Source: Podarcis vaucheri (taxonomy: Eukaryota). Taken from it: a stretch of DNA of 64,000 nucleotides. This document shows positions 27,001 to 30,280 of this stretch, one piece after another. Numbering within the stretch: position 1 is the first letter of the stretch; every line of letters starts with the position of its first letter. Position numbers: made by a program. The stretch lies in the NCBI GenBank assembly GCA_965113315.1, contig OZ220367.1; one strand, given 5' to 3'.

Positions 27001-27846
27001 TTTCTCCTAAGCCAGGCAGAGCTGTCCTAGCTACAGCTAAAGTTTACTCACTGGTCCTCTTTGGAAGTGTGTAGTCCATAACCACCATGCGCAACAACAG
27101 AACGTTCCAGAATGCTGGAGGGTTAGCTTGTTGTAGGAGTGGAAATCTGGATTTACTGCATTTTAACATGTATCCACATTGCTTATATTCGAAGCATGAT
27201 AGCCCAGTATCTGAGCTGAAGTTACAGAAGCAGTAAAAGCACAATATTTGTCAATCGGCATTTGTGGGAGGATTCCTTCTGCTCTCTTTGACTTGAGAAT
27301 TGCTAGCTCTTGCAAAAGAAGCTTCTTGCCTGACTAAGCTGTTTCCTGAACTCTGCAAGAAAGAACTAGCTAAAGGATGCTTGAGTTAAGTTTAAAGTTA
27401 TCTCCCTTCAGGCATTCAAGCACAAGTGGAGCCATGCTGGCTAGTGTTGATGGGAGTTGTAGTCCACAACATGTGGAAGACAAGAGGTGAAAGAAGCCTG
27501 CTGTCTACATTGTATAATAATGTGCATTCAATACTTCTTGACCCAGGCTGAATCTGTAACTGGAAATGGGGTTTTCCAACTCTTGTGCAAATAGAGATCT
27601 CATTCACATATATATATATATATATATATATGCAGGTTTTGGTGTCTTCGGGTGTCTTCCCGTGTAAGAGTCGGGGTGTCTGTGCGACGTTTCGACGAGG
27701 TCTCACTCGTCATCTTCAAAACCTTCCAGCTGAAGATGACGAGTGAGACCTCGTCGAAACGTCGCACAGACACCCCGACTCTTACACGGGAAGACACCCG
27801 AAGACACCAAAACCTGCATTCCTGTACCCGTGAAAATCTACGAAAG

Positions 27847-27901
<55 letters not shown>

Positions 27902-28361
27902 TTTCGTAGATTTCGTAGATATATATATGCTTTCGTAGATTTTCGTAGATTTTCACGGGTACAGGAATGCAGGTTTTGGTGTCTTCGGGTGTCTTCCCGT
28001 GTAAGAGTCGGGGTGTCTGTGCGACGTTTCGACGAGGTCTCACTCGTCATCTGCACTTAATGACCCACCCAGTGATATTCAGAATATCACTCATGAAATC
28101 ACCCAAGATATCCCTCAAGTAATTAAAGAACAAAAGAAGAAAAGGCACACTAATCTAGGAACTTCCTCTCTGCCCAGAACGTTGGAGGCTATACACCACA
28201 CCCCTCAACAGTATTTATAGGAACTCAAACACCAGACTCTGCTCTGTTCCAGTAACAAGAAGCCGAAAGCACCAGCCTGAAGATGACGAGTGAGACCTTG
28301 TCGAAACGTCGCACAGACACCCCGACTCTTACACGGGAAGACACCCGAAGACACCAAAACC

Positions 28362-28408
<47 letters not shown>

Positions 28409-30226
28409 TTTCGTAGATTTTCACGGGTACAGGAATGCAGGTTTTGGTGTCTTCGGGTGTCTTCCCGTGTAAGAGTCGGGGTGTCTGTGCGACGTTTCGA
28501 CGAGGTCTCACTCGTCATCTTCAGGCTGGTGCTTTCGGCTTCTTGTTACTGGAACAGAGCAGAATCTGGTGTTTGAGTTCCTATAAATACTGTTGAGGGG
28601 TGTGGTGTATAGCCTCCAACGTTCTGGGCAGAGAGGAAGTTCCTAGATTAGTGTGCCTTTTCTTCTTTTGTTCCTTAATTACTTGAGGGATATCTTGGGT
28701 GATTTCATGAGTGATATTCTGAATACCACTGGGTGGGTCATTAAGTGTAGATTAGTTGCTAAAGCTTTCGTGTCTTGACCTCTTGAGCTTGTGAAGAGTT
28801 TTTCTGAGAAGATGGCTGTGCTGCATTTAGTTGTGCTCTGGCTTGGCTTCGTGTATAGGGGCGAGCTGTGGTTTTGTGCCTTGTGCCAGCCAGATCTGTG
28901 TAGGGATTGCAGGGGGGTGCAGCATCCGGAGGTGCCACTATAGTTTGGCTACTGGATGGAGTCTGTAATATGTCTGTGGAGAGGGTCTGGGTTTGGGTCT
29001 GGTGTGGTTGATTGGTGACGGCGTTCTGTGTGCCTCTGGTTCTGGTGTCGGTTTTTGTGGGGAGGGCTAATTTCCAGATGTCTGGCAGGCGGGACGTGTC
29101 GTCACGCTTGTTCATGTTGTGAGGGTGTTTCTCTATCTCGATGGCTTCCATGATTATTCTCTTGTGGTGATGTTCCATGTTAAAGAGCAATTTGGAATCT
29201 GCAAAATTAATTTCGTGTCCTGTTTCTTTCATGTGTTGGAAAAGAGAGGAAGTTTTTTCTTCTTTTTTGACGGCATTCTTGTGTTCTGCGATACGTGCAT
29301 TTATTCGTCTGTTTGTTTGTCCAATGTACGTGGCTGGGCAGACTTTGCAGGGTATTTCATAGACCCCTTGGTTTTCCAGCTGGATTTTGTCTTTTGGGTT
29401 TCTGAGGATATTGGCTATTTTTTGGTTGGTGCAGAAGGCTGTTTTGATATTGTGTTTATGGAGGATTTTGCTGATTTTGTCTGTAGTGCCCTTGATATAA
29501 GGAAGGAGGGCCATGCCATTGTTTTCTTCTGTGTCTTGGTTTTTGGGGGGTGTTTCTTTTTGGATTAGCTTCGTAACCCTGTTTTTCTGGTATCCATTGG
29601 CGATTAACACATTTGAGAGATTCTGTAACTCAGTTGTCAAGTGGTCTTTGTCAGCCAGGCGTTTGGTTCTGGAGATGAGAGTCTTGGCTACGGAGTTTAT
29701 TTGTGCAGGGTGGTGGTGTGATTGTGCATGTAAGTAGCGGTTGGTGTGTGTTTTTATATATATATGCAGGTTTTGGTGTCTTCGGGTGTCTTCCCGTGTA
29801 AGAGTCGGGGTGTCTGTGCGACGTTTCGACGAGGTCTCACTCGTCATCTTCAGGCTGGTGCTTTCGGCTTCTTGTTACTGGAACAGAGCAGAGTCTGGTG
29901 TTTGAGTTCCTATAAATACTGTTGAGGGGTGTGGTGTATAGCCTCCAACGTTCTGGGCAGAGAGGAAGTTCCTAGATTAGTGTGCCTTTTCTTCTTTTGT
30001 TCCTTAATTACTTGAGGGATATCTTGGGTGATTTCATGAGTGATATTCTGAATATCACTGGGTGGGTCATTAAGTGTAGATTAGTTGCTAAAGCTTTCGT
30101 GTCTTGACCTCTTGAGCTTGTGAGACCTCGTCGAAACGTCGCACAGACACCCCGACTCTTACACGGGAAGACACCCGAAGACACCAAAACCTGCATTCCT
30201 GTACCCGTGAAAATCTACGAAAGCAA

Positions 30227-30280
<54 letters not shown>

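What the first reader, a model, noticed from the sequence alone, without database searches (positions are those of the whole stretch)
27608..30279. (TA)n-targeted Penelope cluster: three outward-facing inverted insertions stacked in one microsatellite
Seen: (TA)n <S1 S2> (TA)n <S3 S4> (TA)n <S5 (TA)n <S6 S7> (TA)n(TG)n. All seven 3' ends abut (TA)n. Inversion junctions show microhomology (ATCT 28049-28052, GTGA 30120-30123) or a 12-nt filler (27719-27730). Copies differ at only a few positions, so the family is young. Known: PLEs form partial-tandem and inverted pLTR structures. Inference: priming on both strands of the palindromic (TA)n with template jumps, each event leaving fresh (TA)n targets, gives a self-perpetuating insertion hotspot.
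Basis: partly seen in the sequence, partly recalled or inferred. Interest (0 to 1): 0.75.

Follow-up and report, generated by a model that had tools for sequence, protein, structure and literature searches.

The report
Penelope-like retrotransposon nest in a (TA)n microsatellite
Several broken copies of a young Penelope-like jumping gene sit back-to-back inside one (TA)n microsatellite of a lizard-like genome, in the arrangement already described for this class of elements, so it is a clear but ordinary example.

Summary
Every 3' end abuts a pure (TA)n run.

The family is a canonical Penelope-like element (PLE) with a C-terminal endonuclease. The longest segment carries an intact 331-codon ORF. 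It is 96% identical to residues 370-683 of a 735-aa RT + GIY-YIG protein of Podarcis muralis. Its model best matches the I-TevI GIY-YIG fold.

Four segments carry a minimal hammerhead motif. The copies end at two alternative points 28 nt apart, the PLE "tail". Each inverted pair has the tail on one arm only.

This matches published PLE anatomy and the in-vitro behaviour of the Anolis Poseidon element. That element cuts and extends both strands of AT-rich DNA and has two internal RT start sites (PMC11167929). (TA)n and AT-rich target bias is also in print (PMC8557442, PMC3846280).

A second, older hammerhead-bearing short family in the window forms the same inverted pairs. One pair sits inside a perfect 13-bp target-site duplication, so a pair can be one insertion.

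The "self-perpetuating hotspot" idea and the reality of the assembly remain untested. Verdict: new member of a known kind, low to moderate interest.

The parts
27608..27631 (.). (TA)12, left outer flank of the nest
27632..27718 (-). S1: untailed arm of unit A, E1232-1318/1320 (2 nt ambiguous with the repeat)
   Evidence: (100% over 89 nt)
27719..27730 (.). 12-nt filler at the head-to-head junction of unit A. The last 5 nt are possibly E1226-1230.
27731..27849 (+). S2: tailed arm of unit A, E1232-1348 plus 2 A. It carries a min-HHR match at 27730-27763.
27850..27899 (.). (TA)25, 100% pure
27900..27919 (-). Orphan 20-nt fragment of the tailed 3' end, with a short internal duplication.
27920..27928 (.). 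short (TA) run between the orphan fragment and S3
27929..28052 (-). S3: tailed short arm of unit B, about E1232/1235-1348, with a 10-nt tandem duplication near its 3' end
28049..28366 (+). S4: untailed long arm of unit B, E1003-1320. It overlaps S3 by ATCT (28049-28052). min-HHR at 28277-28310, with one C-to-T change that keeps a G-U pair.
28365..28406 (.). (TA)21, 100% pure
28407..29754 (-). S5: longest copy, E1-1348, tailed and 5'-truncated inside the ORF. min-HHR at 28491-28524.
28759..29754 (-). Open frame of 331 codons plus stop. It covers the linker after the RT core and the GIY-YIG/CCHH endonuclease, and equals residues 370-683 of P0002.
29755..29765 (.). (TA)5.5 between the 5' end of S5 and the 3' end of S6
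29766..30123 (-). S6: untailed long arm of unit C, E961-1318/1320. It lies in partial tandem upstream of S5 on the minus strand. min-HHR at 29820-29853.
   Evidence: (D2)
30120..30226 (+). S7: tailed short arm of unit C, E1244-1348 plus 2 A. It overlaps S6 by GTGA (30120-30123).
30227..30279 (.). (TA)9(TG)18 compound microsatellite, right outer flank

Best explanation
The region is a nest of 5'-truncated copies of one young, canonical Penelope-like element (C-terminal endonuclease). The element is of Penelope/Poseidon type, judged by the missing CX2-5CxxC linker. The copies lie in what was most likely a pre-existing (TA)n(TG)n compound microsatellite of a lacertid-like lizard genome.

It comprises three head-to-head units (A = S1+S2, B = S3+S4, C = S6+S7) and one simple truncated copy (S5). 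S5 forms a partial tandem with S6.

Proposed mechanism:
1. The element's dimer-prone RT-endonuclease nicks both strands of the AT-only target.
2. Each 3'-OH primes reverse transcription at one of two internal start sites on the element RNA. Here these are about +82/84 and +112/115 of the ORF of the next tandem unit. This produces one 'untailed' and one 'tailed' outward-facing 3' end.
3. The two cDNAs meet head to head and are joined through 4-nt microhomology or a short filler.
4. Repeated hits on the same microsatellite stacked the units.

Shown here: the anatomy, the family identity, the two 3' ends, the junction microhomologies, and that an inverted pair can be a single insertion (second family, 13-bp TSD).

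Inferred: both-strand priming at this locus, the number and order of events, and (TA)n as the target rather than something the element brought along.
For: Anatomy: see the observation check.

PLE identity:
- The S5 ORF is 301/314 identical to residues 370-683 of P0002. P0002 is 735 aa, from Podarcis muralis, with Pfam RVT_1 at E 4.1e-16 and a weak GIY-YIG match.
- 9 of 10 'longer' homologues carry PF00078.
- The GVY...YIG...R...H...E...N columns and two Cys plus His columns are invariant or nearly so in alignment A1.
- The AlphaFold model has pLDDT >90 over about residues 130-220. Its best PDB fold hits are the I-TevI GIY-YIG domain (1ln0_B: E 0.042, probability 1.00, target TM 0.73), then UvrC GIY-YIG.
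- A profile of A1 hits solved RTs, including telomerase RT.

Hammerhead: my descriptor used CTGANGA, a 0-1 nt bulge, a G-C-closed helix II of 4 bp or more, GAAA, a paired 15.2/16.2, and TH. It gives 5 hits in the window, 4 of them in the nest, against 0 hits in 200 shuffles. The features are those listed for PLE min-HHRs in PMC4209133.

Tail: the 3' ends fall at E1318-1320 (S1, S4, S6) or E1348(+2) (S2, S3, S5, S7). In 3 of 3 pairs exactly one arm is tailed.

Match to the published text on Anolis PAc (PMC11167929, parts 1-2 of 4 and passages):
- PAc cleaves and extends both strands of AT-rich DNA.
- It has two adjacent internal RT start sites in an AC-rich stem-loop 111-118 nt into the ORF, and the tail is the stretch between them.
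- Here an ATG sits at E1237 at the start of helix II. The predicted cut is after E1264 (+28), and the ends are at +82/84 and +112.

Literature on the anatomy:
- An inverted 5'-truncated copy, pLTR partial tandems and a 30-40-bp tail at one end (PMC8557442 passages).
- (TA)n bias in Naiads, hypothesised for Neptune.

In-window replicate: the second family forms 2 head-to-head pairs, each with a 3' extension on one arm only. One pair is bounded by a perfect 13-bp TSD, and a solo copy by a perfect 14-bp TSD.

Junctions: 4-nt microhomology or more at 2 of 3 junctions has a chance of about 7e-4.

Separate templates or events:
- S4 and S6 share two variants (E1029, E1191) against S5.
- All three head-to-head junctions differ.
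Against: - Only one locus of this family could be seen. No eukaryotic DNA collection was on hand, so a family-wide (TA)n preference is not shown.
- Because every unit faces outward, (TA)n at both ends of each unit fits an element-borne 3' repeat as well as a target.
- Rfam gives no hammerhead match, even at E <= 10. Helix I would have only 2 bp, and activity is untested.
- Pfam GIY-YIG is below its cut-off (20.7 vs 22.6 bits). The Foldseek E-values are weak (0.04-0.9).
- The assignment of E1237 as the ORF start is not confirmed. No protein in the searched set begins with the encoded 37-aa peptide. Alignments to homologue N-termini were at shuffle level in 7 of 9 comparisons; the two exceptions were P0006 (8/300) and P0008 (1/300, at a non-equivalent position).
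- The one-tail-per-pair pattern is expected by chance in 8 of 20 arrangements.
- Direct comparison with the PAc sequence was impossible, because its PDF and gbk supplements were unreadable here.
- The window copy itself lacks the RT core.
- The assembly across perfect palindromes and (TA)n runs was not verified.
Confidence: 0.72

Rival explanations
1. One complex event. The whole array arose in a single retrotransposition, with several element RNAs copied in succession by template switching and both strands primed. It would not be three or four separate hits on the microsatellite.
For: - PLEs are described as making complex tandem/inverted insertions in one go (PMC8557442 passages).
- All copies are nearly identical.
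- The (TA)5.5 between S6 and S5 is short.
- The orphan 20-nt fragment and the 10-nt duplication look like stuttering at initiation.
Against: - Long pure (TA)21 and (TA)25 runs separate the units. These would have to be templated or be pre-existing target. Published PAc initiation is internal and not homologous to the target.
- S4 and S6 share two variants absent from S5, and S4 has private changes.
- In the second family one inverted pair fills one TSD, which suggests a pair, not an array, is the unit of insertion.
Confidence: 0.13
2. The (TA)n runs were brought or seeded by the element, as a 3' microsatellite tail or read-through. They would not be a target, and the clustering would follow from later insertions or slippage in those tails.
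For: - Every (TA)n run touches a 3' end.
- All but one of the (TA)>=5 runs in the 64 kb are in the nest.
- All units face outward, so both flanks are 3' flanks.
- From recall, not from a call: microsatellite 3' tails are known for some LINEs.
Against: - If E1237-1348 is the start of the ORF, a functional master cannot carry (TA)n right after it.
- PAc initiates internally without homology to the target.
- The second family's copies have no (TA)n.
- The right flank is a compound (TA)9(TG)18, typical of a resident microsatellite.
- (TA)n and AT-rich target bias is published for PLEs.
Confidence: 0.08
3. Rearrangement after insertion. One or two original insertions were multiplied and inverted by hairpin or cruciform formation at the palindromic (TA)n, by replication template switching, or by unequal exchange.
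For: - S2-(TA)25-S3 is a near-perfect 115-nt palindrome centred on (TA)n (I5).
- Microhomology and filler junctions also mark replication-based rearrangement.
- The 10-nt duplication looks like slippage.
Against: - The arms of each head-to-head pair differ in their 3' ends (tailed vs untailed).
- S2 and S3 differ at both ends. S2 has 2 extra A, and the sequences beyond E1232 differ.
- S4 is not a copy of S5 (two shared S4/S6 variants).
- The three junctions are all different.
- The same pair architecture occurs at two unrelated loci of another family, once within a TSD.
Confidence: 0.04
4. Assembly artefact. The inverted and tandem copies were created or mis-ordered by the assembler at a (TA)n-rich, repeat-rich spot.
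For: - PLE structures are said to cause problems in assemblies (PMC8557442).
- The nest contains perfect palindromes of 89-327 nt and pure (TA)n runs.
Against: - The segments carry distinct variants, distinct junctions with microhomology, and the biologically expected tail pattern.
- There are no N or gaps.
- The anatomy equals that published for real PLE insertions.
Confidence: 0.03

Closest known systems
Poseidon_Ac (PAc) of Anolis carolinensis, Penelope/Poseidon clade (Frangieh et al. 2024, PMC11167929; main text parts 1-2 and passages read)
   Same: - Squamate host.
- RT plus C-terminal GIY-YIG ORF.
- Hammerhead motif straddling the ORF start, with the ATG at the start of helix II and the cut about 26 nt after the start codon.
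- Two alternative 3' ends about 28-30 nt apart, the distal one about 112 nt into the ORF, in an AC-rich stretch.
- AT-rich target.
- Both DNA strands used as primers in vitro, which would give the outward-facing pairs seen here.
   Different: - No sequence comparison was possible, because the PAc sequence file was not readable here.
- The target here is a pure (TA)n run rather than the ATT motif reported.
- The ORF start here is inferred only.
- This copy lacks the N-terminal and RT parts.
Penelope elements of Adineta vaga such as Pen2a_Av (Arkhipova et al. 2013, PMC3846280; passages read)
   Same: - An inverted pLTR adjacent to a direct one.
[quoted passage not shown]
- Overlap or microhomology at the inverted junction.
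- 5' truncation and partial tandems.
- A stated preference for simple AT-rich targets.
   Different: - Rotifer families with clear 8-10-bp TSDs and full ORFs.
- Here TSDs cannot be read inside (TA)n, and all copies are truncated.
Naiad and Neptune PLEs with (TA)n insertion bias (Craig et al. 2021, PMC8557442; passages read)
   Same: - Insertion into (TA)n microsatellites, which hides TSDs.
- Complex tandem/inverted units.
- A 30-40-bp tail.
   Different: - Naiads have an N-terminal endonuclease and lack canonical hammerheads.
- Neptune and Naiad carry a CX2-5CxxC linker, which has been proposed to mediate the bias.
- The ORF here has a C-terminal endonuclease and only one Cys upstream of the GIY core.
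PLE minimal hammerheads and non-LTR retrozyme-like short elements (Cervera & de la Pena 2014, PMC4209133, parts 1-2 read; bioRxiv 10.64898/2026.07.22.740005, abstract and passages)
   Same: - CUGANGA box, a bulged base before G10.1, a long helix II, no helix III, and a palindromic ACGU.
- Paired motifs on opposite strands 100-700 bp apart.
- Short units derived from PLE termini. The second family in this window is such a unit of about 96 nt.
   Different: - The short arms here are pieces of an autonomous family's end.
- They are not shown to be an independent non-autonomous family.
- No tandem circular-RNA-type arrays were seen.

Membership tests
Penelope-like elements (EN+ canonical) | PLE-type reverse transcriptase in the same ORF | tested here: inconclusive
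   The window copy is truncated after the RT core, so it holds no RT. Its 96%-identical relative P0002 has Pfam RVT_1 (E 4.1e-16) and the DKG column. A profile of A1 hits solved RTs, including telomerase RT at E 1.4e-3. No clade phylogeny was made.
Penelope-like elements (EN+ canonical) | C-terminal GIY-YIG endonuclease with a CCHH motif inside the core | tested here: met
   - Pfam GIY-YIG gives E 5.1e-4 but falls below the cut-off.
- The GVY, YIG, R, H, E and N columns, plus C136, C139, H174 and H180, are conserved in 10 sequences.
- The model's best PDB fold hits are I-TevI and UvrC GIY-YIG domains (probability 1.00, target TM 0.73).
Penelope-like elements (EN+ canonical) | pLTR anatomy: 5' truncation, partial tandem, adjacent inverted 5'-truncated copy | tested here: met
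   There are three head-to-head pairs, the S6-S5 same-strand partial tandem, and all copies are 5'-truncated.
Penelope-like elements (EN+ canonical) | Optional 30-40-bp tail at one end of the unit | tested here: met
   A 28-30-nt extension is present on 4 of 7 ends. It is on exactly one arm in 3 of 3 pairs. Chance alone gives this pattern in 8 of 20 arrangements.
Penelope-like elements (EN+ canonical) | Hammerhead ribozyme motif in the pLTR | tested here: inconclusive
   My min-HHR descriptor matches 4 segments, with 0 hits in 200 shuffles. Rfam gives no hammerhead match at gathering score or at E <= 10. Helix I has only 2 bp, and no activity test was done.
Penelope/Poseidon clade (as against Neptune/Nematis) | Absence of the CX2-5CxxC linker upstream of the GIY-YIG core | tested here: met
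   There is only one Cys (residue 108) in the 130 residues upstream of the core, and it is not conserved in A1. The feature is as stated in PMC8557442. No tree was built.
Microsatellite-(TA)n-targeting PLE | Most genomic copies of the family flanked by (TA)n, and empty sites that are plain (TA)n | not testable with these tools
   Only this locus was visible. No eukaryotic genome DNA collection was available, and the window holds no further copy.

The most novel reading that the evidence does not exclude
A Penelope/Poseidon-type PLE that lacks the CX2-5CxxC linker may nevertheless home specifically to (TA)n. Each hit would split the tract and, through a target duplication of about 13-14 bp, lengthen it, so the locus becomes a growing trap for further copies.

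The short arms, whose 5' ends all fall within 19 nt at the 5' edge of the hammerhead box, would be full-length copies of a defined unit RNA of about 95 nt plus tail. That would be a retrozyme-like non-autonomous element caught at its birth. The older 96-nt family in the same window would be the mature form.
Probability: 0.25. Interest if true: 0.45.

Novelty: new member of a known kind. Interest (0 to 1): 0.28.

Why it matters
The locus is a compact natural record of steps so far shown mainly in vitro for one Anolis element. These are priming on both strands of an AT-only target and use of two internal reverse-transcription start sites 28 nt apart, followed by microhomology joining of the two cDNAs.

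If a census showed this family is (TA)n-specific, that would argue against the published idea that the CX2-5CxxC linker is what directs PLEs to (TA)n.

Practically, such nests create long perfect palindromes and fragmented microsatellites. These are fragile, hard to assemble, and score as false miRNA-like hairpins in RNA scans.

None of this changes the known picture of PLE biology.

Tried and rejected
- **Rfam.** At gathering score there were 0 matches in the whole window. At E <= 10 on 27500-30400 there were 54 matches, all below their gathering scores. Nearly all were miRNA-precursor models matching the long inverted repeats and (TA)n, and none was a hammerhead. I reject them as generic hairpin hits.
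- **PDB sequence search.** phmmer of the ORF gave only Taq polymerase at E 0.13 or worse, which is noise.
- **ORF start.** A 46-aa in-frame window stretch found nothing. Pairwise alignments to 9 homologue N-termini gave one positional match of marginal score (P0006, 8 of 300 shuffles as good), one non-equivalent match (P0008, 1 of 300), and 7 at shuffle level. The ORF start is therefore not confirmed.
- **PAc sequence.** Of the supplements of PMC11167929, only a spreadsheet of run accessions was readable. The PDFs and the gbk were not.
- **Literature.** 'Penelope' + 'TA microsatellite' + 'retrotransposon' gave 0 papers. 'Podarcis' + 'Penelope' + 'transposable elements' gave 3 listings, none about this structure (listings only). 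The killifish Neptune paper's mentions of microsatellites are genotyping markers.
- **TATA-like motif.** One lies at E1166-1175, about 55-60 nt upstream of the recurrent 5' ends. That is too far to support a transcription start at E1226-1232 (read by eye output).
- **Flanks.** They are unique in the window apart from a 36-nt SINE-like motif shared by the left and right flanks. No TSD is readable outside the microsatellite.
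Full report
**1. Observation**

I read 27300-30600 and took the longest segment as reference: E, the reverse complement of 28407-29754, 1348 nt. blastn of E against the whole window returned exactly seven matches, all inside the finding, with E-values from 1.7e-41 to 0.

| Segment | Window (strand) | E coordinates | Identity |
|---|---|---|---|
| S1 | 27630-27718 (-) | E1232-1320 | 100% |
| S2 | 27726/27731-27847 (+) | E1226/1232-1348 | 99.2% |
| S3 | 27941-28055 (-) | E1232-1346 | 99.1% |
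| S4 | 28049-28366 (+) | E1003-1320 | 98.4% |
| S5 | 28407-29754 (-) | E1-1348 | reference |
| S6 | 29764-30123 (-) | E961-1320 | 99.4% |
| S7 | 30120-30224 (+) | E1244-1348 | 100% |

- Pure (TA)n runs lie at 27608-31, 27850-99, 27919-28, 28365-406, 29755-65 and 30227-44, then (TG)18 to 30279.
- Only one other (TA)>=5 run exists in the 64 kb, at 8842-8851.
- Every 3' end abuts (TA)n.
The last 5 nt of the filler may be element sequence.
- The window has no N.

**2.

- A 20-nt orphan fragment of the 3' end lies at 27900-27919, between two (TA) runs. S3 has a 10-nt tandem duplication near its 3' end.
- There are two alternative 3' ends. S1, S4 and S6 stop at E1318-1320, with 2 nt ambiguous against the repeat. 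S2, S3, S5 and S7 run 28 nt further, to E1348. S2 and S7 carry two extra A.
- In 3 of 3 head-to-head pairs exactly one arm has this extension, and it is the short arm. Chance alone would give one per pair in 8 of 20 arrangements, so this counts as agreement with the literature, not as proof.
- On the minus strand, S7(inverted)-S6-(TA)5.5-S5 reads as an inverted copy, then a 5'-truncated copy, then a longer copy. This is a partial tandem (D2).
- The 5' ends of all four short arms fall at E1226-1244. Under uniform truncation that clustering has a chance of about 2e-5.
- S4 and S6 share two variants (E1029, E1191) against S5, and S4 has private changes. At least two slightly different templates, or later mutation, are therefore involved.

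**3. Identity**

- The minus-strand frame 28759-29754 is open for 331 codons.
- Pfam gives only a sub-threshold GIY-YIG match (E 5.1e-4; 20.7 bits against a 22.6-bit cut-off).
- A search among longer proteins found 10 hits. The best, P0002, is labelled 'uncharacterized protein LOC144326219 [Podarcis muralis]' and is 735 aa. It is 301/314 identical to the window ORF over its residues 370-683. It carries RVT_1 at E 4.1e-16.
- 9 of the 10 hits carry PF00078.
- In the 10-sequence alignment A1, the GVY, YIG, R, H, E and N columns and a C-x2-C...H...H set are conserved.
- A profile of A1 hits solved reverse transcriptases. The best is 8bgj_A at E 4.6e-10, and telomerase RT scores about 1.4e-3.
- An AlphaFold model of the window ORF has mean pLDDT 67.7, and above 90 for about residues 130-220. 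Its best PDB fold matches are the I-TevI GIY-YIG catalytic domain (1ln0_B: E 0.042, probability 1.00, target TM 0.73), followed by UvrC GIY-YIG domains.
- The window copy lacks the RT core, so RT membership rests on the close relative.
- Only one Cys lies upstream of the GIY core, so the CX2-5CxxC linker of Neptune/Nematis is absent. In PMC8557442 that absence is the Penelope/Poseidon state. I built no tree.
- The host is most likely a lacertid lizard. This rests on one TE protein match only.

**4. Hammerhead**

By eye, E1231-1264 has the CUGANGA box, one bulged U, a 6-bp G-C-closed helix II, GAAA, and ACGU-C.

I wrote a descriptor from the features Cervera & de la Pena list for metazoan PLE min-HHRs: a base between positions 9 and 10.1, G10.1-C11.1, a long helix II, no helix III, and a palindromic 15.2/16.2 (PMC4209133, parts 1-2 of 4).

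- It gives 5 hits in the window, against 0 in 200 block shuffles.
- Four hits lie in the nest (S2, S4, S5, S6). The S4 copy has a C-to-T change that keeps a G-U pair.
- Rfam finds no hammerhead at gathering score or at E <= 10.
- Helix I would be only 2 bp.

The motif is therefore present by descriptor, and function is untested. The same paper notes paired min-HHRs on opposite strands 100-700 bp apart, which is what these inverted pairs are.

**5. Comparison with the known mechanism**

Frangieh et al. 2024 (PMC11167929; main text parts 1-2 of 4 and passages) report the following for the Anolis Poseidon element PAc:

- The protein cleaves and extends both strands of AT-rich DNA.
- RT starts at two adjacent internal sites in an AC-rich stem-loop 111-118 nt into the ORF of the following tandem unit, without homology to the cut DNA.
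- The genomic 'tail' is the stretch between the two start sites.

Here:

- An ATG lies at E1237, exactly at the start of helix II.
- The predicted cut is after E1264 (+28).
- The two 3' ends are at +82/84 and +112 (+114/115 in S2 and S7).
- The sequence around them is AC-rich.

The apparent '3' end' of the element is thus best read as the inter-ORF pLTR (E997-1236) plus the first 84 or 112 nt of the next ORF.

This reading is inferred.

- The frame is open for 37 codons.
- No protein in the searched set begins with that peptide.
- N-terminal alignments were marginal.
- I could not read the PAc sequence file.

Arkhipova et al. 2013 (PMC3846280, passages) describe an inverted pLTR overlapping the direct one. 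[quoted passage not shown] Craig et al. 2021 (PMC8557442, passages) describe the same unit anatomy and (TA)n bias in Naiads. They also report a hypothesis that the CX2-5CxxC linker mediates such bias in Neptune.

**6. An in-window control**

The fifth descriptor hit (32035-32064) led to a second, unrelated short family with a unit of about 96 nt.

- A solo copy at 32028-32123 is bounded by a perfect 14-bp TSD.
- A head-to-head pair at 45208-45297(-) / 45296-45370(+), with a 3' extension of about 45 nt on the right arm only, is bounded by a perfect 13-bp TSD.
- A second pair at about 43603-43725(-) / 43727-43804(+) has the extension on the left arm only and an imperfect TSD.
- A fragment lies at 61099-61172.

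So in this genome an inverted pair with one tail can be a single insertion. These older copies are not in (TA)n. Their arms also begin within -7 to +19 of the hammerhead box, like the short arms of the nest.

**7. Mechanism and rivals**

Best reading (confidence 0.72): three pair-type insertions and one simple truncated insertion of a young Poseidon-type PLE went into a resident (TA)n(TG)n microsatellite. Each pair was made by priming on both nicked strands. The two cDNAs were joined by microhomology; 4 nt or more at 2 of 3 junctions has a chance of about 7e-4.

Rivals:

| Rival | Confidence |
|---|---|
| One complex multi-template event | 0.13 |
| (TA)n brought by the element rather than targeted | 0.08 |
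| Rearrangement after insertion at the palindromic repeat | 0.04 |
| Assembly artefact | 0.03 |

The 'self-perpetuating hotspot' is plausible. Each insertion splits the tract, and a 13-14-bp duplication would lengthen it. It is untested.

**8. What stayed unchecked**

- No eukaryotic genome or read collection was available.
- I could therefore not take a family census, look for empty sites, recover a full-length master, or check reads.
- Supplementary PDFs and the gbk file of PMC11167929 were unreadable. They hold the figures and the sequence that bear directly on the start-site comparison.
- The Arkhipova 2006 paper, cited by others for AT-rich and (TA)n bias, was not read. I know its content only through the citing passages.

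**9. Verdict**

The anatomy and the target bias are already described for this class, so this is a new member of a known kind.

Small points of possible interest:
- A Poseidon-type element without the CX2-5CxxC linker sits in pure (TA)n.
- The 5' boundary of the short arms is sharply defined.

Interest: 0.28.

Noticed in passing
window 32028-32123 (+), TSDs 32014-32027 and 32124-32137: A solo copy of a second, unrelated short element of about 96 nt. It has a minimal hammerhead motif at its 5' end and an A/T-rich 3' end, and it is bounded by a perfect 14-bp target-site duplication.
   Followed up: yes
window 45208-45297 (-) + 45296-45414 (+); TSDs about 45197-45209 and 45414-45426: A head-to-head inverted pair of the second family. 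A 3' extension of about 45 nt is present on the right arm only. The whole unit lies inside a perfect 13-bp TSD, so one pair equals one insertion.
   Followed up: yes
window about 43603-43725 (-) + 43727-43804 (+): Another head-to-head pair of the second family. The extension is on the left arm only, the right arm has an internal deletion, and the TSD is imperfect (7 nt exact).
   Followed up: partly
window 61099-61172 (-): A 3'-truncated fragment of the second family, 89% identical to the solo copy.
   Followed up: partly
window 27691-28535, several spans: The inverted repeats and (TA)n of the nest score against many Rfam miRNA-precursor models, up to 106 bits. All are below gathering score. 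This is a likely source of false hairpin-RNA calls.
   Followed up: yes
window 2059-2451 (+): An open frame with a Pfam PDZ-domain match (E 2e-6, residues 43-90). It is probably an exon of a host gene. This was the only hit among the 25 of 35 long ORFs that I scanned.
   Followed up: no
window 27431-27466 and 30517-30552: A 36-nt SINE-like motif, 86% identical, lies in opposite orientation on the two sides of the nest. A weaker copy is at 61756-61820.
   Followed up: no
window 63691-63754; 44777-44828: Other pure microsatellites are present: a compound (GT)16(GA)16 and (TTTGC)10. None has an element copy next to it.
   Followed up: no
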